This document shows positions 19,568 through 55,204 of a stretch of 55,206 nucleotides of DNA, piece after piece. Made by a program: the position numbers and the translations under genes. Every line of letters starts with the position of its first letter. Positions within the stretch are counted from its first letter, which is position 1. The DNA is from an uncultured archaeon (GTDB lineage: Archaea > Aenigmatarchaeota > Aenigmatarchaeia > GW2011-AR5), in the NCBI GenBank assembly GCA_964599215.1, contig CAZRDV010000006.1:1-55206 (forward strand), given 5' to 3'. Below the pieces are notes generated by a model, which did not search any database, had not been told where the DNA came from, and saw only the letters and a program-made list of their open reading frames with translations.

Positions 19568-19654
19568 TTTTATTTTTTATTTTTCAATTCAGCCCTAATT
19601 AAGTAAAAGGTTTAAATACATTTCCTTCTGAATAGATTAAGATTGATGATTTCT

Positions 19655-20668
19655 ATGGCAAAACATCATAAACATGAGGAACATAGCCACGAAGAACATA
19701 GCCATGAAGAGCATAAGCACAAGGCTAAGAACTACTGGCTGTTCTCGACTATTGTGCTGGCAGTCCTGCTGGTAGCAGTCGTGGCCTTCTACTCATTAGC
19801 AGGGTCAGGAGCAGATGTTGGTGCTCAGGCAGCAACAGACAAGGCTCTGACTTTCATAAACAACTACATGCTTAGCGGAGTAGCTGCTACAGTAGTAAGC
19901 ACTGAAGACACAGGCGGTCTTTACAAAATAAGTCTGGACATAGCTGGCAGCGGCGTCGATGTCTACGTGACAAAGAACGGCTCATTACTTTTCCCTTCTG
20001 TTGTTGATATGGATGAGGAAGTTGAAGTGCCGGCAACTGATGAGGTTCCAAAAACAGCCAGGCCTGAGGCGCATGCCTTTATAATGTCATACTGCCCTTA
20101 CGGCCTGCAGTTCCTGAAGGCCTACATACCTGTTATAGAGCTGCTTGGTGACAAGGCAGACCTGGAGATTAACTTCGTGCACTACGCAATGCACGGTGAA
20201 AAAGAGATACAGGAGAATAACAGGATATACTGCATACAGGAAGAGCAGAGCGAAAAATTAACTAACTACCTGAGATGCTTTGTTGAGAGTGATGATTATG
20301 AGAGCTGTCTTGCTAGTACAGGAATAGATACAGCAAAACTAGATGCCTGCATAGCAGCAGCAGATGAGCAGTTCAAGATAACAGAGATGTACAATGACAA
20401 GGACACATGGTTAAGCGGAAGCTATCCGCAGTACCTAGTTGATGCTGAGCTTGCAACCCAGTACAGTGTAGGCGGCTCGCCAACATTTATTCTGAACGGC
20501 CAGGTATTGAGTGTAACAAGGTCAGCTGACGCTATAAAACAGGCTGTGTGCGATGCATTTACAGATCCTCCGTCTGAATGTGAGCAGGTTCTAAATACGA
20601 ACGCAGAATCCCCTGGCATCGGCCCTATAGGCTCAGGCAGCGGAAGCGGAACACAGGCACAATGCTAA
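19655..20668 (+). CDS. Membrane-anchored DsbA/thioredoxin-fold protein with His-rich N-terminus
   Basis: MSYCPYG, MHGEKE, GSPT cis-Pro loop; N-terminal HEEHSHEEHSHEEH then a TM helix. Confidence 0.8.
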   Translation: MAKHHKHEEHSHEEHSHEEHKHKAKNYWLFSTIVLAVLLVAVVAFYSLAGSGADVGAQAATDKALTFINNYMLSGVAATVVSTEDTGGLYKISLDIAGSGVDVYVTKNGSLLFPSVVDMDEEVEVPATDEVPKTARPEAHAFIMSYCPYGLQFLKAYIPVIELLGDKADLEINFVHYAMHGEKEIQENNRIYCIQEEQSEKLTNYLRCFVESDDYESCLASTGIDTAKLDACIAAADEQFKITEMYNDKDTWLSGSYPQYLVDAELATQYSVGGSPTFILNGQVLSVTRSADAIKQAVCDAFTDPPSECEQVLNTNAESPGIGPIGSGSGSGTQAQC

Positions 20669-44475: not shown

Positions 44476-45780
44476 CTACTTCAGCCCGAACTGCTTCAAG
44501 AAGCCGGATCTCTTCATCTTTTCCGGCGAAAACCTTTTCATCATCTTCTTGGTCTTGTTGTAGTTGGCCAGCAGCTCCCTGACCTCGCTTTCATCGCAGG
44601 CAGAGCCGTGTGCAATCCTGCTTATTCTGGCTGAATTAATTTCCTCAGGCTTTGCCTTTTCCTCAGGTGTCATTGACTGGAGGATGAATTTCCATCTTTT
44701 CATCTTGCCTTCCTGCGCTCCTATGTCAGGCACCTTGCCAGAGAGCTTTCCAAGACCCATCATGTCAAGCACCTGGGTCATGGGCCCCATCTTTTGCATA
44801 GACTCGATTTGCGAATAGAAGTCATCTAGATCGAAATCACCTTTGATAACCTTTTCTGCTTTTTTCTCATCTACAACTAAACGGGCCTTTTCAAGCAGTG
44901 TCTCTAAATCAGGAAAACCAAGCAGGCGCGATACGAACTTGGTAGGGTCATACTCTTCAAGGTCATCGGTCTTCTCGCCAAGGGCAATAAACTTTACTTT
45001 AGCTCCGGTTGTGTAACAGGCAGTTAATGCACCGCCGCCCTTTGCAGTGGCATCAAGCTTTGTAACAATGACATCTGTTATGTTTAGCGCAGAATGAAAA
45101 GCAACAGCCTGCTCCTTTGCTGCCTGCCCTATATCAGCAGGTATGACCAGCATGCGCTCATCTGGCTTAAGTATTTCATTGAGCCTCTTTATCTCGTTTA
45201 TAAGGTCCTTGTCAAGTGCGCTCCTGCCCGAGGAATCGACAATCAGGATATCGGCTTTTACCCTCTTCATGGCCTCCTTCAAAACACTACTGCTGTCTTT
45301 TTCGCCTTTTATTCCAAAAAACGGCACTTCTATCTGCTTTGACAGCTGTTCTAACTGCTCGTAAGCAGCTGGCCTTACTGTGTCGCAGCAGACCAGGCAA
45401 GGCTTAAGGCCCTTTTTCTGGTAGAACCTTGCCAGCTTTGCAGATGTTGTTGTCTTACCTGATCCAAATAATCCGATAAGAAGTATTTTCTTTGATTTCA
45501 GCTCTATTATAGATTTCTCCTTGCCCAGTATTCTCGTGAGCTCGTCGTAAACAACCCTTATTACGTGCTCTTTCCTTGTAAGGCCCGGCAGTAATTTCTG
45601 CATAGATTTTTGCCGTATGCTGCTGCTGAGCTCAAATACCAGCTTCACGTCTACGTCACTGGCTATCAGCGAGCGCTGTATATCCTTTATCAGGTCTTCA
45701 ACAGCTGCCTTGTCAACCAAGCCTATCTTAGTCAGCTTCTCTATGCTCTCCCTTAACTTTGCAGACAATCCCTTAAGCAT
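44476..45780 (-). CDS. srp54: Signal recognition particle protein SRP54
   Basis: GLFGSGKTT, DTVRPAA, DSSGR, TKLDATAKGGG; M domain with SMTPEE and SRIAHGS. Confidence 0.95.
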   Translation of the reverse strand: MLKGLSAKLRESIEKLTKIGLVDKAAVEDLIKDIQRSLIASDVDVKLVFELSSSIRQKSMQKLLPGLTRKEHVIRVVYDELTRILGKEKSIIELKSKKILLIGLFGSGKTTTSAKLARFYQKKGLKPCLVCCDTVRPAAYEQLEQLSKQIEVPFFGIKGEKDSSSVLKEAMKRVKADILIVDSSGRSALDKDLINEIKRLNEILKPDERMLVIPADIGQAAKEQAVAFHSALNITDVIVTKLDATAKGGGALTACYTTGAKVKFIALGEKTDDLEEYDPTKFVSRLLGFPDLETLLEKARLVVDEKKAEKVIKGDFDLDDFYSQIESMQKMGPMTQVLDMMGLGKLSGKVPDIGAQEGKMKRWKFILQSMTPEEKAKPEEINSARISRIAHGSACDESEVRELLANYNKTKKMMKRFSPEKMKRSGFLKQFGLK

Positions 45781-45856
45781 AACAATCACTACTCGATAAA
45801 ACTTCTAATAAAACTTTTTTAAAGGTTGAGTTTACCCTTATAGATAAAAAGTATGC

Positions 45857-46390
45857 TTATTTGGTTATGTACTGCCTTGTCTTGATAAGTATGGCCACAA
45901 CAATTATTAGTATAAAAAGTGCCACGCCTATTTGATAGGTCTGCGGCGAGACTATGAAATTGCCGGTAATCGTGTTTTCCAGCTCGGTTTTCTGTGCCTC
46001 AAGAACCTCCAGCTCTGCCTTATATTCGTCCCTTTCCATCTTCAGCTCATCCAGCTCAGCTAGAAGCTCTGACTTCTCGTCCCCCATCTCTGATATCTGC
46101 TTTTCAACTGCCTCTATCTGAACATTCAGCTGGTCAACCCTGGAGAAGACGTTATTTATTCTCTCTTCCAATGCCTGCATCTCGTTGAAATTCTCGACAA
46201 TTATTCTCCTGTAGCTTGTAAAGCCGTTGTCAAGATAGTTTACTGTAAATTCTCTGTCATCCAGTATTTTGTATGTAACGCCGTCCTGTGTCAGGAAACC
46301 GTCGTCTATCTTGCTCTTGTCTAAATCAAGAACGCCTGCTTGCGCTACGCCAATCATGAATAAAATAGTTAGCAGATAAATTATTCTCAT
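45857..46390 (-). CDS. Secreted, C-terminally anchored coiled-coil protein
   Basis: Signal peptide (AQA), long heptad region, ITGN..VSP followed by TM. Confidence 0.75.
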   Translation of the reverse strand: MRIIYLLTILFMIGVAQAGVLDLDKSKIDDGFLTQDGVTYKILDDREFTVNYLDNGFTSYRRIIVENFNEMQALEERINNVFSRVDQLNVQIEAVEKQISEMGDEKSELLAELDELKMERDEYKAELEVLEAQKTELENTITGNFIVSPQTYQIGVALFILIIVVAILIKTRQYITK

Positions 46391-47334
46391 TTTTTCACCT
46401 TCTTTGTCAGCACCAGGGCATCTATAATCACAACTATCAGGATTAGTGCTACTATTCCTCCTATTACAACGCCTGATGGTGCAACAACAGCATTACTGCC
46501 TATCCTCTGCTCGTATGCATCTATTGTCCTGTTTGTAAGCGGTATTGATTTTTTAATTGCCGCTGTCTCTTCTATAACATCGCTGCTCTCTGCTTTCAGC
46601 TCTTCTATCTCTGATGCCAGGCTGCTTACAACATCCTCCAGCGGCACTATCGTGGTGTTCATGCCTTCAATGCTCTGCTCAAGCTTTTCAGCCCTGTAAG
46701 CAAGCTCTTCTATGTTGCTCCTGTCCTCCAGGAACACCGTCCCGCTAGGATTGAACGCGGAAAAATAAAGCATTATTTCGCTGAAATGATTTGAGCCCGA
46801 TATAATCAATGACCTGGATTTGTAGTCGTAATGCCACCTTACCGGGGTGCCGGCCATTATCACGCTTGGCGCTTCAGAATATATCTGTAAAGTACTTGTT
46901 CCTTCATAATCCTTTTCTATGCTTATTAGCAGCTGTTCGCCTGAATGATAATAGGTTGTTTTTGTCGGGTCTATTACCATAGGTGTCTGAGGCAGTATGA
47001 GCACTCCGTTTACAGACGCATAGGTCCAGGACCTGTCTGCAGGAAGTGTAAGGTTATAATAGATGGTCTTATCATTGAAGACAACAGGGACAATGATGTT
47101 CTTCTCATCATCAGCGTAATTATCAACCCTGCCAAGCACGAGCTTCATTCCGTTTGACGTCTCGTATTCCTTTACAGTAATGTCAGAAAAAGCCTCAACA
47201 ACAGCACTTACTAACTCGCCGCCCTCTGCTTTTTCATTGGTCTGGTAGTAGACGGTATTGCCAGTTACAGAATTCATGGTAACGAAAACTATTGCTGCGC
47301 ATACCATTATCAGAATTATGAAGTCTGACCTCAT
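46387..47334 (-). CDS. Membrane-anchored protein: beta-rich head, coiled-coil stalk and C-terminal TM
   Basis: N-terminal TM plus VTGN; heptad region; N.VVAP followed by TM and KKVKK. Confidence 0.75.
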   Translation of the reverse strand: MRSDFIILIMVCAAIVFVTMNSVTGNTVYYQTNEKAEGGELVSAVVEAFSDITVKEYETSNGMKLVLGRVDNYADDEKNIIVPVVFNDKTIYYNLTLPADRSWTYASVNGVLILPQTPMVIDPTKTTYYHSGEQLLISIEKDYEGTSTLQIYSEAPSVIMAGTPVRWHYDYKSRSLIISGSNHFSEIMLYFSAFNPSGTVFLEDRSNIEELAYRAEKLEQSIEGMNTTIVPLEDVVSSLASEIEELKAESSDVIEETAAIKKSIPLTNRTIDAYEQRIGSNAVVAPSGVVIGGIVALILIVVIIDALVLTKKVKK

Positions 47335-50300
47335 TTCTTTCTCCTTTTTGCTTTCTTCCTGGCAATCATGGATACTGAACCCTTTTTCTTTTTACCGCCG
47401 CCTCTTTTCAGTATCCTGTATAGCAGGTAAGCCAGTATTATTATTCCTATTAAAATAATAAATGCTGTTAATGGGTCAGTTAATGCACCTATCAACAGGC
47501 CTGTTATCCCTACAGCAGGCACCTTGACCTCTTCTTCAGGCTCTTCTTCAGGCACTTCTTCTTCAGGCATCTCACATGCCTGTTCTTCAGCTGGTTTGCT
47601 TGATACTGTGCCGCAGGCATTCTCGTCAATGCATTCTCTTACCTGTGTGCCTGTGCATTCGCTCCATTCACTGCATACCCATTTCTCTACACACTCCTTT
47701 TGTACAGACGAACTGTAATAGCCGCCGCTTGGGCTTCCGCCAGGCGGAGATGGTGGAGATGGAGGAGCTCCTTCGCCTACTATAAGGCCTGTCTCTGCAA
47801 ATGAGTCAGTATCAGCATTGTTCCTTGCCCTGACTCTTATAATATAATTGCCATCAGCTACGTCAGGTATCAGTTCCTCGTCTGCGCAATCCAAACCAAG
47901 GTTGTATGATTCGATTACATCCTCGCCTGACATCAGGAATGCCCAGCAGCTCTTCAGGCCCTGCGGATCATGTCCGTCAGACGTTATATTGATCGTTTCA
48001 TTTCTCTCGGCCTGTGCAGGCGCTGAGACGTAAGTGATTATTGGTGCTGAATTATCAACAGTTATTGTTACTGCGTCATAGCCGTAGAACAATCCGTTGC
48101 TTGCTCTAAGTTCTATTACACATGGCTCTCCGTCCATGCAGCTGGCTGTATCGAAATCAAAATCAGCATTGCAGGTTATTGAAAACCATGCTGACTCTGT
48201 TCCATTGTCCACATACCTGTAATCGCAGACCGTGCCGGCAGTTGTGTGTGAGACTGTTATGATGCCCTTATACCAGCCTGGTGCTGGTGCAGTTATAGTT
48301 ATTTCAGGCCCTTCGTATACAGTGAACTCAGCATAAGCAAACAGTCCCCAGTAGCCGCCGTTATCTTTGCCGTGGACATAGACCCTGTGCAAACCAGGTG
48401 ACAGGCCAGGATCCAGCTCACCGATAACATCCTCTATGTAGCTGTCAAATGTGCCGTCTACTGCATCCATAGGCGTTCCGAGGCCGGAAGGTCCCATCCA
48501 GTCAATGAAGTATTCTGCGCCAACTACGGAAAGGCCTTCTATTGTGGCTGTTACTGTAAGGTCTTCAACATAAACATTGTATGTGGTAGGTGCTGAGTTC
48601 TGCACGATAACCATGTAGAACGTGCATTCGCCCCAGTTTCCAGCTGCATCCTTTGCACGGATCCAGAGGTTGTATGCTCCATCAGGACAAGGCACATTTA
48701 TCAATGCCTCTACTATTTCAGAAGGCGAATCAAAATAACCGTCTTGGGCATTCATGGAAACGCCTGTGCCTGGGTCGCCACATCCGCCCTCAGTAACAAA
48801 GAAGTATTCAGCCTCTACGATGTTGTTGCATCCCATCGGGTCTTCTGCAAGTGCTGTTATCTCTGCTGTTTCGCAGCATCTTGGCGAATTAACAGAGATG
48901 TCGCTTACAACAGGCGGTGTTATGTCCATAGGCCCCAATAACGGATCGCAGTATTCACAAGGCCTTATAGGCTCTTCGTCTATGTAACAGCCTTCTTCGC
49001 TGCAGCTGCCCTCTCCGTAATAACAAATATCATCAACTACTGTGCCCGGCATTGGACAATAATCGTCATAGGCGAACTTGCATGAACACACAGTAGGATC
49101 TGTGTTGCACTCGCCACCATAATAGCAGTAATCACCAATTATTCTTGGCTCGCACTCTTCTCCTGCTCCGTCACACTCTGCTTCGCACACCTGCACGCCG
49201 CCGTGATTGAAAACACCGTCTGTGTCATCACCATCTGCACAGACGTGGCTTACTGTCTCGTCTCCCTGTGAGCAGTAACCGCTGTTGCAGCCATTTTCAA
49301 CGCACTCGCTTACGAATGCACATCTCCAGTCGAACGTAGAAGCAAAGTTATCAGGATCAAAGTAGCAGGTTGCCACTTCCGGAATATCATTACCGCTGCA
49401 GTCAACAGGCTCTCCAGCCTCGCAGTGCACGCCATCTAGCTCGCTACAATACTCCTGGCCATTGCACCATAGATCGTCTCTACAGTCGATTAGTGAAGAG
49501 GAAGGCAGGCACTGTGTTTGTTCCTGGTCTTCGTAGCATGATTCTGTGTAATAGTGCTTGTAATAAGTATCCTGGCAGTCCTCATAATTATAAACTGAAC
49601 AGTCTTCTACCTCGCAGAATTCTGAATCACAGGTAACCGTATCATAATTACAGAATCCTTCTTCTGCCATTCTAGAATCTTCGCTACAGAATTCGTTATA
49701 GAAGTAACAGCTCTCTATAAAGCCTGTCTCATAACTGCAGGTAACCGTTGACTGGTCACAGTAACCCTCGTTGTAAACTATATCATCATTCTCAGAGCAG
49801 TATTCCACATAATAATAGCAGTATTCAACTGGGAATGACTCTGCATAACACTCTCCCTGTGAGCAGTATCCTACATCCTCCCATACGTCATCACCAGAAC
49901 AGTAAGAGGTGTCAAGATAGCTACAGTCAACATCATAATCCTTTACGCAGCTTCCAAGGCCGTCACAATGATCTACTGTACAAAGGTCCTCATCTGCCTC
50001 GCATGGCGTACTTAGAGGATAGTTAGTATAATCAGGTACGCATGAATCTAGTTCTTCGTCGCATACTCCTGCCTGGCACTGGTTATCAAGGCCTGAACAA
50101 TCTCTTTCTGCACCAACACAGGCACCCTGTATACACATATCATCAACTGTACAGTAAAGGCCGTCATCACAGGCACTTTCTTTATATCTTGTACTGCCAG
50201 TATCAACCCACTGGTTGTCAATGACATTGTAAGCGCAGCCTTCAGGGTCGCAGTAATAATCCCTGTACTTCTGCTCTTTCTGCTCTTTCTCGTTGCACTG

Positions 50301-51182
50301 ATCAACAGGTACCCACTGCTTGCTGCATGTATCGTACCAGCCGTCATAGCTGTCGCAGTCCTCTGACTGGAATGAACAGAAGCATGTATCAAGGCAAGCT
50401 CCGCCAAAATACCTTATGTTACCAGAACAGTAACCCTGGCAATCGCAGCCTTCACACTCTGCACCGCAGTAGTCAGTATCACAGTGGTAACCGCAGTCAG
50501 ATCCGCTCTCAACGCATGTTCCCTCATACCACTGATTTACACGTGTGTCATCACAAAGAGGACACCAGTCGCATTCATTCTGCTCGCAGGACGGCATGTC
50601 CGTGTAGCAGTCGCATGGTATTGAGTAGGTAACAGTTAGTTTTACTAGATCATGCTTGGTAACATCTGCTGGCGGGTATGCCGGGTTCAGCGATACCTGG
50701 AACCATATCTTAAGGTTGTTTACATCCTCTACTGTGTTGATATAAGGCGCGTTTATTATCTCTGTCCTGTCTATGTATAGCAGCGGCAAAGGTGTTGGGA
50801 AGTTGTCAATAAACCATGAAGCTGAGCTCTGATCCCATATCTTCAGCCTTGCGGTATTTATGTTGTAGCAGGTGTCAGTCCTCTGCCACTCGAATGTTAT
50901 TATTACACTCTCAACAACAGCGCAGGAAGGCAAGTCTGGCGAAAAGTCAAACTCAATGTAGTCGTAATCATTATAATTCCTGTTGTTCCAGACAGCATAG
51001 CTTACGTATCGGTTGTCATCGCTTGAGGCGAGCTTTTCAAGGTCGCCTGCTGTCAGCACGTACATGCCTGTGCCGTGATAGCTTTCGTCGTATCCCTCTG
51101 TCGGATAGTAATCTCCTGTAAATGCAAGAGCAGGCATTGCGCACATTAGGACTGCAACAATGCTGAAGATTATCTTGCTCAT
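47331..51182 (-). CDS. Giant Cys-rich cell-surface protein (1283 aa)
   Basis: Signal peptide, beta-sandwich N-domain, long Cys-rich region (CDDGLYCTVDDMC-type repeats), two AEYF..G.G..M.A.DG.FDS Ig repeats, Pro/Gly linker, TSP1-like module, ITG-TM-basic tail. Confidence 0.85.
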   Translation of the reverse strand: MSKIIFSIVAVLMCAMPALAFTGDYYPTEGYDESYHGTGMYVLTAGDLEKLASSDDNRYVSYAVWNNRNYNDYDYIEFDFSPDLPSCAVVESVIITFEWQRTDTCYNINTARLKIWDQSSASWFIDNFPTPLPLLYIDRTEIINAPYINTVEDVNNLKIWFQVSLNPAYPPADVTKHDLVKLTVTYSIPCDCYTDMPSCEQNECDWCPLCDDTRVNQWYEGTCVESGSDCGYHCDTDYCGAECEGCDCQGYCSGNIRYFGGACLDTCFCSFQSEDCDSYDGWYDTCSKQWVPVDQCNEKEQKEQKYRDYYCDPEGCAYNVIDNQWVDTGSTRYKESACDDGLYCTVDDMCIQGACVGAERDCSGLDNQCQAGVCDEELDSCVPDYTNYPLSTPCEADEDLCTVDHCDGLGSCVKDYDVDCSYLDTSYCSGDDVWEDVGYCSQGECYAESFPVEYCYYYVEYCSENDDIVYNEGYCDQSTVTCSYETGFIESCYFYNEFCSEDSRMAEEGFCNYDTVTCDSEFCEVEDCSVYNYEDCQDTYYKHYYTESCYEDQEQTQCLPSSSLIDCRDDLWCNGQEYCSELDGVHCEAGEPVDCSGNDIPEVATCYFDPDNFASTFDWRCAFVSECVENGCNSGYCSQGDETVSHVCADGDDTDGVFNHGGVQVCEAECDGAGEECEPRIIGDYCYYGGECNTDPTVCSCKFAYDDYCPMPGTVVDDICYYGEGSCSEEGCYIDEEPIRPCEYCDPLLGPMDITPPVVSDISVNSPRCCETAEITALAEDPMGCNNIVEAEYFFVTEGGCGDPGTGVSMNAQDGYFDSPSEIVEALINVPCPDGAYNLWIRAKDAAGNWGECTFYMVIVQNSAPTTYNVYVEDLTVTATIEGLSVVGAEYFIDWMGPSGLGTPMDAVDGTFDSYIEDVIGELDPGLSPGLHRVYVHGKDNGGYWGLFAYAEFTVYEGPEITITAPAPGWYKGIITVSHTTAGTVCDYRYVDNGTESAWFSITCNADFDFDTASCMDGEPCVIELRASNGLFYGYDAVTITVDNSAPIITYVSAPAQAERNETINITSDGHDPQGLKSCWAFLMSGEDVIESYNLGLDCADEELIPDVADGNYIIRVRARNNADTDSFAETGLIVGEGAPPSPPSPPGGSPSGGYYSSSVQKECVEKWVCSEWSECTGTQVRECIDENACGTVSSKPAEEQACEMPEEEVPEEEPEEEVKVPAVGITGLLIGALTDPLTAFIILIGIIILAYLLYRILKRGGGKKKKGSVSMIARKKAKRRKK

Positions 51183-51241
51183 TTATCACACCTAATGAGT
51201 GATAACTAAAACTGAAAGATTTATAAACTTAATGCCAGAAT

Positions 51242-51300
51242 TTAGCCAAAAATGTTGCAAACGTAATTACTTCGTAATTGCCTCGTGATTTCTTGGCTAA
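51242..51300. promoter_or_regulatory. Phased CGTRATT repeats enclosed by an inverted repeat, upstream of the giant-protein promoter
   Basis: CGTAATT at 51262 and 51273, CGTGATT at 51284 (11-bp period); ttagccaa/ttggctaa flanks; TATA tttataaa at 51220-51227. Confidence 0.5.
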
Positions 51301-51309
51301 TTAGTGGAA

Positions 51310-52041
51310 TTAAAATGGAATTGGCTTGAAAGCTCCAGTAGCCTTCTTCCTGAACTTGATCAGATACACTGCTGTTACTACTATTATGACTACAACTATT
51401 CCCACAAACGGGTTGCCCACTACGCCGGCAAAGAGGCCAGTCATGTCAATGCCAGAACTGTCTGCCTCCTCAGCTGAGCACGGATTCGATTCAAACGGCC
51501 TGTCGTTCTCAGTGCCGCACTGGTTCTCGTCAAAGCACAGCCTTGTTTCTATTCCATCCTTGCAAGCTGACCAGTCGGAACAAGTCCACGACTCCTGGCA
51601 TATCGTGGTTGTTGTTACACCAGGCACGATCGTAGTGGTTGTTGTTGCCTCGCTACCACTGCTGCCGCCGGGACTGCCTCCATCGCTTGGCGCTGTTATA
51701 GTAACTGTTAGATTAAGAGAAGTTGACTTACCATTAACAAATGTAGCTGTCTGGCCTGTACTTACATCATCAACAAAGAACTCTATTGTCGATCCTGCCC
51801 TAACACTATTAGGATCAGCAATATAGAATACAGGAGAGTAACCATACCTGCCGTCTGCTGTGGTCGTAGAGGCTACCCCTATTCCGTATATTCTGGCAGA
51901 TACAGTTGTTCCGTCTGAAGCCGGCGCTCCGTTCACAGTAACAGTTCCGTAGAATCGATGAGGCTGGCTTGGAACTGCAAGAGCAACGCTACTTAACAGA
52001 ACAATCATAACAGCTGCCAATATGTATCTCATTTTTATCAC
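51310..52041 (-). CDS. Cell-surface protein: P.P..FYG.V.VNG beta domain, Thr linker, TSP1-like module, C-terminal TM
   Basis: PSQPHRFYGTVTVNGAPA; CQESWTCSDWSAC; MTGLF followed by TM and basic residues. Confidence 0.8.
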   Translation of the reverse strand: MIKMRYILAAVMIVLLSSVALAVPSQPHRFYGTVTVNGAPASDGTTVSARIYGIGVASTTTADGRYGYSPVFYIADPNSVRAGSTIEFFVDDVSTGQTATFVNGKSTSLNLTVTITAPSDGGSPGGSSGSEATTTTTIVPGVTTTTICQESWTCSDWSACKDGIETRLCFDENQCGTENDRPFESNPCSAEEADSSGIDMTGLFAGVVGNPFVGIVVVIIVVTAVYLIKFRKKATGAFKPIPF

Positions 52042-52081
52042 TTAAGAGTTAGAAAATAAATATAAAAAGCTATCTGTAGGC

Positions 52082-55000
52082 CTATGCAAATACTCCGCTC
52101 CAGACGCACTCGAAATCGCTGTTCCAGATGCATGTTGTTGCCGGCACATAGTTGTCAGACACATCCAGCTCTATCCAGTAACCGCGGCCTGCATACATCT
52201 TGTCCTGTGCACTATACATGCTTTCTTCAATGCATGAATTTATTCCCATCCAGTTCGTATTGTGGTTTCCGCAGTTTATGTAAGTCCACAGTGAGCTCCA
52301 TCTTGGATATCCTTCTTGCGTATCAATCAGGGAGTTCAATGCACAATATGACTGGCTTCCATACAGTAACTTGTCTGGCCACTGGTAGGCGTCTCCGCAC
52401 ATGAAGTCGAAGTCGCCCCAGTCATAGTTCTCCCAGTTTATTCCATAGTAGCCTATGAGGTTCCATCCGTCGACCAACACTCTGCTTGGTGGTGTTGTTG
52501 CCGGACTGAACAGGCTTCCGCCTAGGACCATCCATAATGGTTCTTCATTGTCCTTAAACCAGAAGCAATTTGGCTTGAAGCCGCATTCGGTTTCTGGCTT
52601 GTCCTTAATCATTACCCAGTATCCCCAGCCTGGCCATATCTTCAGGTTGTCGTTTTCTACGCCGTCAGGGCTCCAGACACACCAATCTTGTCCGCACATT
52701 GAGAGGCCTGGATCGTATGCCCATACAGAGTCTATATATTCTCCGATGTCTTCTACAAGCTCCCCGTCAAAGTATATCTTGTCAAAGACAACCTCTGGAT
52801 CGTCATTCAACAGTGTGAATGGTACTGATATCAGGTTCCATTTCTTGAACAGAGGTATCTCGAACTTGTTTCCCTCTACCTTGAACTTTTCTTCGTCTAC
52901 TGGACCTACATTCCATAGCTTGTCAACACAATAGTACTTCAAATTGTGTTCTGTCTCCTCAAGGAAGTAGAACAGCTTTCTGTTGTCGTAGCACTCGATT
53001 TCCTGTACCTCGTCACAGTGGTCTTTGTATGGGAAGAAGTCACAACCATCGTGATTATAATTATCATCCTCTGGACCAAGCCATCTGCAACAGTAACCAC
53101 TAAACCAGTTGTACCATCCGCCGTATTCTCTACAGTAACTCATTGTTTCGTCTTCACCATCAACATCAACTTTGAAGCATATCTTGTTTTCGCCTACCGG
53201 ATGAGTATCTTGTCCGCCCAGACTGTCGTCACACTCCATCAGTATTGGCGTGAGTGTTGTGGCCTCCCAGCATTCTATTTCATCGCTTGTATTGTCCCAG
53301 CAGTGAGCAGTTTCCTCAGGATAGAAGTAACTCTCTGGGTCTCCATTCTCGCCAGGTGTCCAGACATCCTTTGGCTCGCCGATTGTCTTTACCGGCTCTG
53401 GTCCTGTGTTATCAACGAAGACACACTGTTTGTGTGTTGTATCTTTTCCAACACCGTCTTTACTGTATATCTCTATCAGGTGACAGGACTCATCAGCTAT
53501 CTTGAACTCCTCGTATGTAGGATCAGCCATTGTTGTCCATTCCTTTTCTGTAGTGGCGTCCTCACAGTCCAATATGCCCCAACAATAGTCGTCAGGAACC
53601 ACGTCGTACCTGTATTTGCTCTCAACTACTCCTGAATCATGAGGCCCGTCAGTATCATCTATATTTATTGTTATTTCTGTATCACTGCTTATCCATTCCA
53701 CTGTTGCCCATTCTAAACAATCTGGTTTACATCTATAACATTCTTCCCAGTTCAGGCAGATTTCCTTTTCATAATAAGGCCATCCGTAGTCTTTGTCTAT
53801 CCTTGGCGGTGTCTTGTCAACTATGAACATTTCAACATCATCAACGCTGTTATCCAGCCCGTCCTTGCAGTACATGTGCAGGATGTGCTCTGATTCCTCA
53901 GGGAAGCTGAACCAGAACGGTACTGGCACATCAAAGACTCTTCCTCCAACTTGTACCCAGTCAGTTCCGTTGTATTCAGCGTGATACTCTCCGCAGTCTC
54001 CACTCCATGTATACCACCAGTCACACTCAACCATTCCAATCGGGTGTGGCTCTGGGTCATATGCGTCTATGTGTACTTCCGTTACACTGTCTACCTGGTA
54101 GCAGTCTTCTATAGGGATGTGTGTTTCCATGGCAAATATGTGGAATCCAGGTATCTCATCTTTAGGGTTTCCAGCCCAGTTCAAAGTTACCTTTCCAGTT
54201 AAAGTAAATCCGCTAGCTTGTTCAGCATCAGTTAATGGAGCGTTAACTCCCTTGTAACCACTACCAGAGTCTACATCAGGAAGTGGCATACCATTTAGCA
54301 TCATGTTTGTTAATTGAGCACTGTTACCATTAGCATTTCCTTTGGCAAATGCAACTATGTAACCAAATGCCTTTCCTGAATCATAATTCCAGTTCAATGT
54401 CTTGTCGCCGACAGTGTATACAACACTGCCATCACTTGGGTCATAAGTTAGTGAGAAGTCAACGGCTACTCCACTAGTCCATACATAATTATCTTGATCT
54501 TGAACTGTTTCAGGATTAACACTCTTTATTGCTAACTCCCATGATCCTGTAGGGTTGTTTGCTCCGTATCTTCCAGTTGTCATGAAGTCTTTCTTTTCTT
54601 CAACCACTTCACAATCTACCCAGCCATCACACAGCTCTGGTTCACCTGCCTCTTGGGGTGGGCAGTCTATCTTAGGGTCGCTTACTGTTTTCTCTATAAC
54701 AGGCGGGGTATTGTCAACAATATCAATCTCGCTGTATACCGGTGTTGGATTGCCAAGACCGTCTACGCAGTAATATTCCAGCTCATGGCAGGATGATTCA
54801 GGGAAGTATATTGTTTTCTCCAGCAGATACGGGTTGCCGTTAGGCATCGCTGGTGGATTAAACCATCCCATCCATGTGGCTTCTTCAAGATCATTGCAAT
54901 CATCAGCATACCTGTATCTATAGAACAGTGAAACATGGTCAACAGGGTGGTCTGCTGTCTCGTTCCAGGTGTCATCGCAGTTAAGTATTATTGGTGTTTG

Positions 55001-55204
55001 TCCACCGATGTAGTAGATGAGAGGGTCTGCAGAGTAAACAAACTTTGGTTCACCAATATCTTTCCATACCTCAGGGTATGTGTTGTCAACGAATACGCAC
55101 TGTGCCTTGACTGGCTCTTCATTACCCAGCAGGTCTACAGAATAATATTCTATCATGTGGCATGATTCCTCTGGCTTTGTGAATGGGTCTATGTATTCAT
55201 TCCA
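52082..55204 (-). CDS. Giant secreted Cys-rich Ig-repeat protein, 5' end outside window
   Basis: Frame stays open to the window edge (WNEYIDPFTKPEESCHMIEYY); five H.(I/L)..Y.(V/K)D..GN-type repeats with VDxTxP linkers; C-terminal WNLIS/GWNLIG and GYW repeats. Confidence 0.85.
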   Translation of the reverse strand, partial: WNEYIDPFTKPEESCHMIEYYSVDLLGNEEPVKAQCVFVDNTYPEVWKDIGEPKFVYSADPLIYYIGGQTPIILNCDDTWNETADHPVDHVSLFYRYRYADDCNDLEEATWMGWFNPPAMPNGNPYLLEKTIYFPESSCHELEYYCVDGLGNPTPVYSEIDIVDNTPPVIEKTVSDPKIDCPPQEAGEPELCDGWVDCEVVEEKKDFMTTGRYGANNPTGSWELAIKSVNPETVQDQDNYVWTSGVAVDFSLTYDPSDGSVVYTVGDKTLNWNYDSGKAFGYIVAFAKGNANGNSAQLTNMMLNGMPLPDVDSGSGYKGVNAPLTDAEQASGFTLTGKVTLNWAGNPKDEIPGFHIFAMETHIPIEDCYQVDSVTEVHIDAYDPEPHPIGMVECDWWYTWSGDCGEYHAEYNGTDWVQVGGRVFDVPVPFWFSFPEESEHILHMYCKDGLDNSVDDVEMFIVDKTPPRIDKDYGWPYYEKEICLNWEECYRCKPDCLEWATVEWISSDTEITINIDDTDGPHDSGVVESKYRYDVVPDDYCWGILDCEDATTEKEWTTMADPTYEEFKIADESCHLIEIYSKDGVGKDTTHKQCVFVDNTGPEPVKTIGEPKDVWTPGENGDPESYFYPEETAHCWDNTSDEIECWEATTLTPILMECDDSLGGQDTHPVGENKICFKVDVDGEDETMSYCREYGGWYNWFSGYCCRWLGPEDDNYNHDGCDFFPYKDHCDEVQEIECYDNRKLFYFLEETEHNLKYYCVDKLWNVGPVDEEKFKVEGNKFEIPLFKKWNLISVPFTLLNDDPEVVFDKIYFDGELVEDIGEYIDSVWAYDPGLSMCGQDWCVWSPDGVENDNLKIWPGWGYWVMIKDKPETECGFKPNCFWFKDNEEPLWMVLGGSLFSPATTPPSRVLVDGWNLIGYYGINWENYDWGDFDFMCGDAYQWPDKLLYGSQSYCALNSLIDTQEGYPRWSSLWTYINCGNHNTNWMGINSCIEESMYSAQDKMYAGRGYWIELDVSDNYVPATTCIWNSDFECVWSGVFA

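What the first reader, a model, noticed from the sequence alone, without database searches (positions are those of the whole stretch)
45857..55204. Cell-surface apparatus cluster: giant disulfide-rich proteins plus two coiled-coil stalk proteins
Seen: five co-oriented genes for predicted exported proteins. The last three (1283-aa Cys-rich protein, 315-aa head+stalk, 177-aa stalk) are translationally coupled by 4-nt overlaps. The two coiled-coil proteins have parallel C-termini (TITGNFIVSP-TM versus RIGSNAVVAP-TM), suggesting paralogs that co-assemble. Known: DPANN episymbionts attach to host cells and often encode very large surface proteins. Inference: a multi-component adhesion or host-contact structure, with a membrane-anchored hetero-oligomeric stalk presenting Cys-rich adhesins that are oxidised by the DsbA-like protein at 19655.
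Basis: partly seen in the sequence, partly recalled or inferred. Interest (0 to 1): 0.7.

Follow-up and report, generated by a model that had tools for sequence, protein, structure and literature searches.

The report
Two-protein membrane stalk beside surface giants
A small symbiont-type archaeon encodes two related membrane proteins that very likely zip together into a 12-nm stalk carrying a small head, much like the anchor of the Sulfolobus cell coat, while the giant cysteine-rich proteins next to it are separate, swappable surface genes rather than fixed parts of one machine.

Summary
The five co-oriented minus-strand genes, the ATGA overlaps, the cysteine richness and the parallel C-termini are all real. 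They are not one conserved apparatus.

The conserved unit is the last gene pair, 315 aa and 177 aa.
- It is adjacent in 20 of 20 related loci and present in 25 of 70 genomes of the order.
- The two proteins are paralogous from a neck strand through the coiled coil to the C-terminal membrane helix.
- Stalk lengths step in heptads and agree within one residue in 21 of 21 genomes. The 82-to-89 change happened at least twice, in both genes together.
- A complex prediction gives an in-register parallel heterodimer (ipSAE 0.73, best control 0.00).
- Both family profiles have Sulfolobus SlaB as their best solved-structure hit (E 1e-7 and 7e-7).

My reading is a heterodimeric, SlaB-like membrane pillar.

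The neighbours are separable.
- The giant anchorless protein and the 243-aa anchored protein form a cassette of their own, adjacent in 4 of 4 genomes. The other three lack the stalk pair.
- The 1283-aa protein is a self-anchored mosaic adhesin with a carbohydrate-binding-module-like tip.
- All sit in a variable surface-gene island at the ftsY–srp54 position.

The function of the stalk is inferred, not shown.

The parts
46387..47334 (-). Large stalk subunit (315 aa). Layout: signal-peptide-like N-terminus, disordered linker 22-49, beta-sandwich head 50-195, neck strand 196-205 (GTVFLED), one helix 206-281 with an unbroken heptad pattern, juxtamembrane IGSNAVVAP, membrane helix 286-312, basic tail.
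   Evidence: AF2 model with mean pLDDT 79.4. Head resembles the C-terminal beta-sandwich of a GH35 glucosaminidase: Z 7.5, rmsd 3.6 over 122 residues; Foldseek E 1.3e-3. Family has 42 representative clusters among 1.84 billion proteins. Strong full-length matches in 25 of 70 genomes of the order.
45857..46390 (-). Small stalk subunit (177 aa). Layout: signal peptide ending AQA, small N-domain 19-57, neck strand 58-67 (RRIIVEN), coiled coil about 68-144, juxtamembrane ITGNFIVSP, membrane helix, short basic tail. It is paralogous to the C-terminal half of the 315-aa protein.
   Evidence: E 7.4e-15 to the 315-family profile. Lies immediately downstream of the large subunit in 20 of 20 related loci. 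Complex prediction.
47331..51182 (-). 1283-aa self-anchored Cys-rich adhesin-like protein. Layout: signal peptide, jelly-roll tip (residues 21-190), about 570 aa of Cys-rich repeats, four Ig-like repeats (about 755-1140), Pro/Ser linker, Cys module C-x3-W-x-C-S-x-W-S-x-C...C-G-T, Glu-rich linker, TGL..DP motif with membrane helix, long basic tail. It is the first gene of the operon that ends with the stalk pair.
   Evidence: One full-length ortholog (48% identity, 98% coverage); the other 23 hits are partial or mosaic. Tip domain AF2 pLDDT 90.5. The tip resembles a phage phi812 baseplate protein, the BcsB carbohydrate-binding domain and CBM15, Foldseek E 4e-5 to 1e-3.
51310..52041 (-). 243-aa anchored protein (240 aa from ATG 52032). 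Layout: signal peptide, about 95-aa beta domain, Thr-rich linker, the same Cys module, TGLF..GNP motif with membrane helix. It is the conserved partner gene of the giant anchorless protein.
   Evidence: C-terminal module shared with the 1283-aa protein, BLASTP E 1e-11. 41% identical over its full length to L039:7723-8487, from a genome without the stalk pair. Full-length orthologs only in G016, G066 and G014.
52082..55204 (-). Giant anchorless secreted protein, at least 1040 aa, cut at its 5' end by the contig end. It has OmpL47-type barrel repeats, a choice-of-anchor W domain, 4% Cys, and a conserved C-terminal module of about 260 aa (52082-52864) built from two WNLI...GYW units. It has no membrane helix.
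   Evidence: NCBIfam choice_anch_W 105 bits and barrel_OmpL47 39.8 bits. The C-terminal module sits at the C-terminus of other giant proteins. It is found in G016, G066 and G014, each time directly upstream of the 243-like gene.
51220..51227 (-). TATA-box-like TTTATAAA about 40 nt upstream of the 1283 ATG, with AGGTG at 51189-51193. This is the likely promoter and ribosome-binding site of the 1283-315-177 operon.
   Evidence: Read directly from the sequence. Inference only; no transcript data.
52053..52068 (-). T/A-rich TATA-like stretch about 30 nt upstream of ATG 52032 of the 243-aa gene.
   Evidence: Read directly from the sequence. Inference only.
45846..45850 (-). T5 run 6 nt after the 177-aa stop codon, the likely end of the operon. 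A separate TTTAAAAAA box (45814-45823) precedes SRP54.
   Evidence: Read directly from the sequence. Inference only.
44476..45789 (-). SRP54, the housekeeping gene that flanks the island. It is not part of the apparatus.
   Evidence: Pfam SRP54, SRP_SPB and SRP54_N. SRP54 lies downstream of the pair in 6 of 16 related loci.

Best explanation
The region is a composite island of surface-protein genes, not a single machine.

The conserved core is the 315-aa/177-aa gene pair. These are two paralogous single-pass membrane proteins with the N-terminus outside and a C-terminal membrane helix. They pair in parallel and in register through their neck strands, an 11-heptad coiled coil and the juxtamembrane segment. 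The product is a two-chain stalk of about 12 nm. It holds one beta-sandwich head, capped by the small subunit's N-domain, above the membrane.

In architecture it is a short, heterodimeric counterpart of SlaB, the membrane stalk that holds the Sulfolobus S-layer canopy. I propose that it works the same way: as a fixed-length pillar whose head binds and spaces outer surface proteins or a coat. The rapidly changing giant proteins encoded beside it would be the exchangeable outer layer.

Shown: the genes, their paralogy, their strict adjacency, the concerted heptad changes, and the modular make-up of the neighbourhood.
Predicted: the heterodimer and its register.
Inferred: the pillar or anchor function and what the head binds.
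For: Adjacency.
- The pair is adjacent in all 20 related loci fetched.
- In the window plus the first 16 loci, 11 of 17 pairs have an ATGA-type overlap of 4 nt.

Paralogy.
- BLASTP E 1e-7.
- Profile hit E 7.4e-15.
- Both proteins carry a hydrophobic-hydrophobic-E-D/N neck motif and an I-T/S-G/S-N-h-h-h-S-P juxtamembrane motif.

Matched stalk length.
- The distance from neck to juxtamembrane proline is 82/82 in 13 genomes, 82/81 in 2, 89/89 in 4, 88/89 in 1 and 80/81 in 1. All 21 pairs agree within one residue.
- Across 40 family members only 75, 82, 89 and 96 occur.
- On the large-subunit tree the long state needs 3 changes, and at least 2 are forced by well-supported branches.

Complex prediction.
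- ipSAE 0.73 in three runs; best of 3 controls 0.00.
- Partner pLDDT at least 82; at least 86% of contacts shared between runs.
- That mark was reached by 116 of 157 solved complexes and 2 of 215 mismatched pairs.
- The interface is a parallel a/d heptad ladder, 207-281 against 70-144. It also includes strand pairing of 196-205 with 58-67.
- This is the same register the length analysis implies.

Core residues.
- The core has Ile/Val at a positions and Leu at d positions.
- Asn faces Asn at the last d layer in both chains.
- The small subunit carries basic residues at core positions 106, 120 and 134.
- From general coiled-coil knowledge, this fits a two-stranded heterospecific coil.

SlaB likeness.
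- Both family profiles have PDB 8QOX chain B as their best hit, at E 1.3e-7 and 6.9e-7.
- The alignments are colinear through the stalk and membrane helix.
- The eLife paper's data-availability passage lists 8QOX as the SlaA/SlaB assembly, and its text gives SlaB as 475 aa, the length of chain B.
- The NCBIfam SlaB model gives a weak hit of 23 bits.

Operon and literature.
- In this genome the operon is 1283-315-177, with a promoter-like box and a T-run.
- A review notes that the SlaA/SlaB split lets the exposed protein evolve freely while the anchor is preserved (passages). That matches variable neighbours beside a conserved pair.
Against: - There is no expression, proteomic or imaging evidence, so the function is inferred from architecture alone.
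- The pair is missing from 45 of 70 genomes of the order, including good assemblies: G011 (97% complete), G014 (93%) and G003 (90%, 2 contigs). It cannot be a universal envelope component there.
- In 8 of 20 assessable loci no surface-protein gene lies upstream.
- The 1283-aa and 243-aa neighbours have their own anchors.
- The giant+243 cassette exists without the pair.
- The SlaB similarity covers only the coiled coil and membrane helix. It could reflect shared architecture rather than descent. The NCBIfam SlaB score is 23 bits against a cut-off of 700.
- SlaB is a homotrimer, whereas this looks like a heterodimer.
- The controls were unrelated natural proteins, not other coiled coils, so general coiled-coil stickiness is not excluded by that test alone.
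- Only 1:1 stoichiometry was tested.
- The head has only generic beta-sandwich matches.
Confidence: 0.5

Rival explanations
1. All five genes build one host-contact apparatus, in which the hetero-oligomeric stalk presents the giant Cys-rich adhesins.
For: The genes are co-oriented. The 1283, 315 and 177 genes are translationally coupled in this genome. A secreted or anchored surface-protein gene lies directly upstream of the pair in 12 of 20 assessable loci. The large neighbours carry adhesin-type domains: Big_13, VWA, LTD, LamG, CARDB and a CBM-like tip.
Against: The upstream proteins are not homologous between genera. The 1283-aa and 243-aa proteins are self-anchored. The giant+243 cassette is found in G016, G066 and G014, which lack the pair. 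Giant secreted proteins occupy the ftsY–srp54 site without the pair in L038 and L039. The pair sits directly after ftsY, with no giant gene, in L013, L014, L024 and L025.
Confidence: 0.15
2. The pair is a stand-alone heterodimeric adhesin or lectin. The head on its stalk binds a host-cell or environmental ligand directly and anchors nothing else.
For: The head's best fold matches are accessory beta-sandwich domains of glycoside hydrolases. In another order, G344 (L030), a related head domain is fused to a different type of anchor, so the head behaves as a portable functional module. The patchy distribution, 25 of 70 genomes, suits an accessory host-interaction factor.
Against: The fold matches are weak and generic: Z 7.5, Foldseek E 1.3e-3. 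The head is more conserved than the neighbouring adhesin-like proteins, with invariant or near-invariant residues across 40 sequences. It is inherited vertically, with f1 and f7 separated at 98/98 support. Host-range determinants are usually more variable. The stalk length is held to heptad steps, which suits a spacer.
Confidence: 0.25
3. The pair is a membrane-tethering or fusion device, a SNARE-like or class-I-fusogen-like coiled coil with a C-terminal membrane helix, used to bridge symbiont and host membranes.
For: The topology of N-terminal head, long coiled coil and C-terminal membrane helix resembles viral class I fusion proteins (recalled, not tested). Weak coiled-coil profile hits to spike and haemagglutinin chains appear far down the list.
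Against: There is no fusion-peptide-like segment, and the model shows only one long helix with no sign of a hairpin-forming second heptad region. No match at E 0.001 or better in the viral structure library. The viral hits are 4 to 5 orders of magnitude weaker than SlaB.
Confidence: 0.05

Closest known systems
SlaB, the membrane anchor of the two-component SlaA/SlaB S-layer of Sulfolobales (PDB 8QOX chain B; eLife 2024, PMC10903991)
   Same: The order of parts is the same: signal peptide, N-terminal beta-sandwich domain(s), one long C-terminal helix forming a parallel coiled coil, a C-terminal membrane helix, and a gene placed directly after a large secreted surface-protein gene (passages). 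It is the best solved-structure hit of both family profiles, colinear through stalk and membrane helix. The partner on the outside is variable and the anchor conserved (passages).
   Different: SlaB has three beta-sandwich domains, a 132-residue helix and forms a homotrimer. Here there is one head domain and a 76-82-residue helix. A second, truncated paralog replaces the self-association, giving a predicted heterodimer. The NCBIfam SlaB score is 23 bits against a cut-off of 700. No SlaA-like protein is present, and the upstream 1283-aa protein has its own anchor.
Mycoplasma MG_279/MG_280 family (Pfam PF23067, NCBIfam TIGR04527 'mycoplas_twoTM')
   Same: These are adjacent paralogous genes in a very small genome. 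Their proteins have hydrophobic segments at both ends and a coiled coil between. Hits are weak: 315-aa protein against PF23067 at E 6.4e-5; 177-aa protein against TIGR04527 at E 0.007.
   Different: Both hits are below the curated cut-offs and cover only the coiled coil and membrane helix. The Mycoplasma gene adjacency and the lack of a known function are recalled, not tested here. No beta-sandwich head was compared.
Archaeosortase substrates with a tripartite C-terminal signal (PGF-CTERM type), such as the Haloferax S-layer glycoprotein
   Same: The stalk subunits and the neighbouring anchored proteins end in a short motif (TG-x-F/L ... D/N/S-P), a membrane helix and a basic tail. The genome encodes an exosortase/archaeosortase-family protein, TIGR04178 at 52 bits.
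   Different: No known C-terminal sorting model matches the tails. The sortase is present in 52 of 70 genomes and does not track the pair. It is absent by two queries from G055, G060, G068 and G069, which keep both the pair and the motif.

Membership tests
SlaB (S-layer anchor of Sulfolobales) | Sequence membership by the curated model (NCBIfam NF040788, cut-off 700 bits) | tested here: not met
   23.2 bits, E 2.9e-5, covering only residues 199-309.
SlaB (S-layer anchor of Sulfolobales) | Domain order: signal peptide, beta-sandwich domain(s), long C-terminal helix, C-terminal membrane helix | tested here: met
   AF2 model with strands at 52-190, a helix at 206-281 and a helix at 286-312, plus the hydropathy scan. 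There is one head domain where SlaB has three.
SlaB (S-layer anchor of Sulfolobales) | Remote homology of the stalk and membrane anchor | tested here: inconclusive
   8QOX chain B is the top PDB hit of both profiles, at E 1.3e-7 and 6.9e-7, against 5e-5 and 1e-4 for the next coiled coils. The match is limited to the coiled coil and membrane helix, so shared architecture cannot be told from descent.
SlaB (S-layer anchor of Sulfolobales) | Homotrimeric coiled coil | tested here: inconclusive
   A 1:1 heterodimer with the paralog is predicted at 0.73 against 0.00. The core is Ile/Val at a and Leu at d. Homo-oligomers and higher stoichiometries were not folded.
SlaB (S-layer anchor of Sulfolobales) | Binds and anchors a lattice-forming outer protein (SlaA) | not testable with these tools
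This needs biochemistry or cryo-tomography.
MSTP-type archaeal S-layer protein (Pfam PF07752), predicted for Aenigmatarchaeota in bioRxiv 10.1101/2024.05.28.596244 | PF07752 domain present in the genome or in relatives | tested here: not met
   0 of 1 in the window's own genome at E 0.1 or better. 0 of 70 genomes of the order score over the cut-off. The window's genome is 86% complete.
Archaeosortase substrate (PGF-CTERM-like sorting signal) | Known C-terminal sorting-domain model, and co-occurrence with the sortase | tested here: not met
   No sorting-domain hit for the four tails at E up to 10. The pair occurs without a detectable sortase in 4 genomes.
Mycoplasma MG_279/MG_280 two-TM family | Score over the curated cut-offs (PF23067 at 27.4 bits; TIGR04527 at 125 bits) | tested here: not met
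   23.0 bits for the 315-aa protein and 16.1 bits for the 177-aa protein.
   Only a GILT match at E 0.051, 14.3 bits, below its 22.4-bit cut-off. The motif is CPYG with one cysteine.

The most novel reading that the evidence does not exclude
The 315/177 pair is a previously undescribed class of archaeal envelope pillar: an obligate heterodimeric, SlaB-like stalk. It would set the width of the space under the surface coat in one DPANN order, with its length tuned one heptad at a time in both subunits together. It would be the conserved docking post onto which fast-evolving giant surface proteins are hung. That would make it the first identified anchor component of a DPANN cell envelope, and an independent or very ancient relative of the Sulfolobus two-component S-layer design.
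Probability: 0.3. Interest if true: 0.75.

Novelty: new variant of a known kind. Interest (0 to 1): 0.6.

Why it matters
A 2023 preprint on Nanobdella states that no S-layer proteins had been determined for DPANN archaea (passages). How these tiny symbionts build their envelope and hold their giant surface proteins is therefore open.

This pair gives a small, conserved and experimentally tractable handle. The two ectodomains, of about 240 and 130 residues, should form a defined heterodimer whose length can be read from the sequence.

The concerted heptad changes are a clean natural example of two genes co-evolving to keep a coiled coil in register.

The work also shows that the showy giant genes are interchangeable cargo in a hot spot between the two signal-recognition-particle pathway genes, ftsY and srp54. 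That changes how such clusters should be read in other genomes assembled from metagenomes.

I found no description of this pair. The searches were DPANN + S-layer + SlaB, Woesearchaeales + S-layer, Aenigmatarchaeota + S-layer + surface protein and Aenigmatarchaeota + coiled-coil. Supplements of the bioRxiv preprint on predicted S-layers were not open to me, and they may list candidate proteins for this phylum.

Tried and rejected
- Pattern scans for relatives of the 315-aa family found nothing in genome contigs or metagenome contigs. The broad alignment was too diverse to scan with.
- The ESM Atlas gave no usable hit.
- Expression: no RNA holder was listed. The laid runs were contigs only and cannot rank genes.
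- Archaeosortase dependence of the shared C-terminal motif was considered and dropped. The sortase is in 52 of 70 genomes, including 11 of 11 in a genus without the pair. It is absent by family and by protein query from four genomes that have the pair. No known sorting-signal model hit the tails.
- MSTP-type S-layer protein as the canopy: PF07752 was not found in the window's own genome or in the order.
- Viral origin or a fusogen fold: no BFVD match at E 0.001 or better.
- N-glycosylation sequons are not enriched in the window's five proteins: 0, 3, 3, 1 and 3 observed against 0.9, 2.4, 6.7, 1.7 and 5.7 expected.
- The 1283-aa protein has no PDB sequence relative at E 0.01 or better.
- Pfam found nothing for the 243-aa protein, the giant protein's C-terminal module or the 1283-aa tip domain at E up to 5.
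- The head-domain fold search gave only generic beta-sandwich matches, and the wide search was dominated by coiled coils. The head was not folded alone, so I make no claim of a new fold.
Full report
The window is one whole contig of a 784-kb, 15-contig genome that is 86% complete.

Five minus-strand ORFs lie at 52082-55204, 51310-52041, 47331-51182, 46387-47334 and 45857-46390.
- The first is cut at its 5' end by the contig end.
- The second more likely starts at ATG 52032.
- The 1283/315 and 315/177 junctions are both ATGA overlaps.
- Cysteine content is 7.5% in the 1283-aa protein and 4.0% in the protein of at least 1040 aa.

A TATA-like box and an AGGTG precede the 1283 gene. A T5 run follows the 177 gene, and SRP54 has a box of its own. 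In this genome, therefore, 1283-315-177 reads as one operon, and the 243-aa gene has a separate promoter-like stretch. These signals are read from the sequence only.

The rest of the window holds archaeal housekeeping genes: exosome subunits, SBDS, proteasome alpha, RtcB, geranylgeranyl reductase and SRP54. A same-family relative's record is titled Candidatus Aenigmatarchaeota. Partial relatives of the 1283-aa protein are labelled Candidatus Woesearchaeota. A DPANN-type archaeon is a fair description.

**The two stalk proteins are the conserved core.**
- The 315-aa family is small: 42 representative clusters among 1.84 billion proteins.
- It is almost confined to one order. There are 25 of 70 genomes with strong full-length matches. 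In the rest of the phylum only 2 of 301 genomes match, and only partially.
- In all 20 related loci I fetched, a gene of 165-237 aa with the same layout follows directly.
- Of the window plus the first 16 loci, 11 of 17 show a 4-nt overlap.

The small protein is a truncated paralog of the large one.
- BLASTP gives E 1e-7.
- The large-family profile hits the window's own small gene at E 7.4e-15, and hits most partners in other genomes.
- Both carry a neck motif (FLED against VEN) and a juxtamembrane motif (IGSNAVVAP against ITGNFIVSP).

The AF2 model of the large subunit has mean pLDDT 79.4. It shows a beta-sandwich head at 50-195, one helix at 206-281 and a membrane helix at 286-312.

**They very likely pair in register.**

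Stalk length. I measured the distance from the neck motif to the juxtamembrane proline in both subunits of 21 genomes.
- It is 82/82 in 13, 82/81 in 2, 89/89 in 4, 88/89 in 1 and 80/81 in 1.
- Across 40 family members only 75, 82, 89 and 96 occur.
- On a maximum-likelihood tree of the large subunit the long state needs three changes, and at least two are forced by well-supported branches. The tree separates the two taxonomic families at 98/98 support, as expected for vertical descent.
- The two genes have therefore gained or lost a heptad together more than once.

Complex prediction.
- The score was 0.73 in three runs, against 0.00 for the best of three controls.
- Partner pLDDT was at least 82, and at least 86% of contacts were shared between runs.
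- That mark was reached by 116 of 157 solved complexes and 2 of 215 mismatched pairs.
- The interface is a parallel a/d ladder, 207-281 against 70-144. It includes pairing of the two neck strands and contacts between the small N-domain and the head.
- The register is the one the length analysis requires. It brings the two juxtamembrane prolines (286 and 149) and the two core asparagines (281 and 144) face to face.

Core residues. The core has Ile/Val at a and Leu at d. The small subunit carries basic residues at three core positions. From general knowledge of coiled coils this suits a two-stranded, hetero-specific coil.

Caveats. The controls were not coiled coils, only 1:1 was folded, and this is a prediction.

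**Likeness to SlaB.**
- Both family profiles have the same best hit among all solved structures, 8QOX chain B. The E-values are 1.3e-7 and 6.9e-7, well ahead of ordinary coiled coils at 5e-5 and 1e-4. The alignments run colinearly through the membrane-proximal stalk into the membrane helix.
- The eLife paper lists 8QOX as the SlaA/SlaB assembly of Sulfolobus acidocaldarius and gives SlaB as 475 aa, the length of chain B (passages read).
- It describes SlaB as three beta-sandwich domains, a 132-residue helix forming a trimeric coiled coil, and a C-terminal membrane helix (passages read).
- The NCBIfam SlaB model also hits weakly, at 23 bits and far below its cut-off.

The order of parts is therefore the same. 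Membership fails the curated test, the oligomer differs, and the sequence similarity may reflect architecture rather than descent.

The head's best fold matches are accessory beta-sandwich domains of glycoside hydrolases (Z 7.5; Foldseek E 1.3e-3). These are generic.

**The five genes are not one unit.**

Upstream of the pair. Among the 20 loci whose upstream side can be read (21 loci counting the window, less L023, which ends at a contig end), 12 have a secreted or anchored surface-protein gene there. The other 8 have ftsY, other small genes or a gene on the opposite strand. These upstream proteins are not homologous to each other. They carry assorted adhesin-type domains.

The 1283-aa protein. 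It has one full-length ortholog, and the other 23 hits are mosaic. It is self-anchored. Its membrane-distal tip is a confident jelly-roll (pLDDT 90.5) resembling carbohydrate-binding modules and a phage baseplate protein.

The giant anchorless protein and the 243-aa protein form their own cassette.
- The giant protein's 260-aa C-terminal module is found in three other genomes of the order.
- The 243-aa protein has full-length orthologs only in those same three genomes.
- The two genes are adjacent in all four.
- None of those three genomes has the stalk pair.

The ftsY–srp54 site. In relatives without the pair, this interval is empty (L041), holds only small ORFs (L040), or holds giant secreted proteins alone (L038, L039). 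SRP54 follows the pair in 6 of 16 loci, and an FtsY-like gene precedes it in 5 of 16. The window's cluster is thus a stack of separable modules in a variable surface-gene island.

**Mechanism and rivals.**

I commit to the pair being a fixed-length, membrane-anchored heterodimeric pillar that works like SlaB. Two membrane helices hold a 12-nm two-chain coil, and its single head binds outer surface material. The pairing I rate as likely. The anchoring role is an inference from architecture, from the operon with a surface protein, and from the pattern of a conserved anchor beside variable exposed proteins, which a review describes for SlaA/SlaB (passages read).

The main rival is a stand-alone adhesin or lectin on a stalk. 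The patchy distribution and the portable head fit it: in G344 a related head is fused to another anchor type. A fusion device has no support.

**What led nowhere.**
- The shared C-terminal motif suggested an archaeosortase signal, and the genome does encode such an enzyme. Its distribution does not follow the pair or the motif.
- The MSTP-type S-layer protein predicted for this phylum in a preprint (passages read) is not detectable in this genome or in the order.
- No RNA data exist for the stretch. Contigs from other runs of the same habitat label show differences clustered in the 1283 gene and none listed in the pair, but that list is truncated.
- The 'DsbA-like' gene could not be confirmed.

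**Verdict.** The new content is a heterodimeric SlaB-like stalk with concerted heptad evolution, which I class as a new variant of a known kind. Its function is still to be shown.

Noticed in passing
own genome, contig C7:8526-48827 (+); also C1:19883-30376 (-) and C3:54976-58599 (+): One uninterrupted ORF of 13,434 aa, about 5% of the genome, with a signal-peptide-like start and a membrane helix near residue 13033. There is also a 3,498-aa ORF and a second 1,208-aa protein with 7.7% Cys, a signal peptide and a C-terminal anchor.
   Followed up: no
loci L011, L013, L014, L024, L025, L035, L038, L039, L040, L041: The interval between ftsY and srp54 behaves as an insertion hot spot for surface-protein genes in this order. 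It is empty in L041, holds giant secreted proteins in L038 and L039, and holds the stalk pair with or without giants elsewhere.
   Followed up: partly
window 52082-52864 and 51310-52032; G016 C7:7022-8475; G066 C106:59-1423; G014 C4:437127-438616: A giant anchorless protein ending in a conserved two-unit WNLI...GYW module is followed by a 240-254-aa anchored protein in 4 of 4 genomes. This may be a second 'large secreted plus small anchor' pair. Binding was not tested.
   Followed up: partly
window 47394-47762 and 51313-51600; own genome C15:7642-7773; L012, L019, L022, L031: A Cys module, C-x3-W-x-C-S-x-W-S-x-C...R-x-C-x-D-x-N-x-C-G-T, sits just outside the membrane anchor of several surface proteins. 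There are three copies in this genome and none in Pfam or NCBIfam. It recalls thrombospondin type 1 repeats, from memory only.
   Followed up: partly
own genome C8:38369-38830 (L027:1483-2025, minus strand): A short (180 aa) exosortase/archaeosortase-family protein fits no named subtype: TIGR04178 at 52 bits, with all subtype models below their cut-offs. It is present in 52 of 70 genomes of the order. Its substrates are unknown.
   Followed up: partly
window 19643-20668 (+): A 341-aa protein with a His/Glu-rich N-terminal tail, one membrane helix and an outer domain carrying CPYG. The only match is a weak GILT thiol-reductase hit, E 0.05.
   Followed up: partly
window 48252-48270 and 50139-50241: Contigs from other runs of the same habitat label differ from the window in tight clusters inside the 1283-aa gene. 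One 8.6-kb contig covers SRP54, the pair and the 3' two-thirds of the 1283-aa gene (to 50138) with 7 differences, none of them in the pair. The list is truncated and depth is low.
   Followed up: no
L030:144-1418 (G344, another order of the same class): A 424-aa protein carries a domain matching the stalk head (profile positions 67-195, E 2e-20). It is fused to a Cys-rich module and a TG..P anchor instead of a coiled coil.
   Followed up: partly
L018:1-1344 and the next ORF (G022): Upstream of that locus's giant protein lies another pair of genes, 447 aa and 178 aa. Both have a signal-peptide-like start and a C-terminal anchor. This may be a second stalk-like pair, but the two were not compared.
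   Followed up: no
L026:1013-9240 (G057): Several short proteins with pilin-like N-termini and a 598-aa ATPase-sized gene lie just upstream of that genome's stalk pair. This suggests a type IV pilus-like locus next door. It is judged from the N-terminal sequences only.
   Followed up: no
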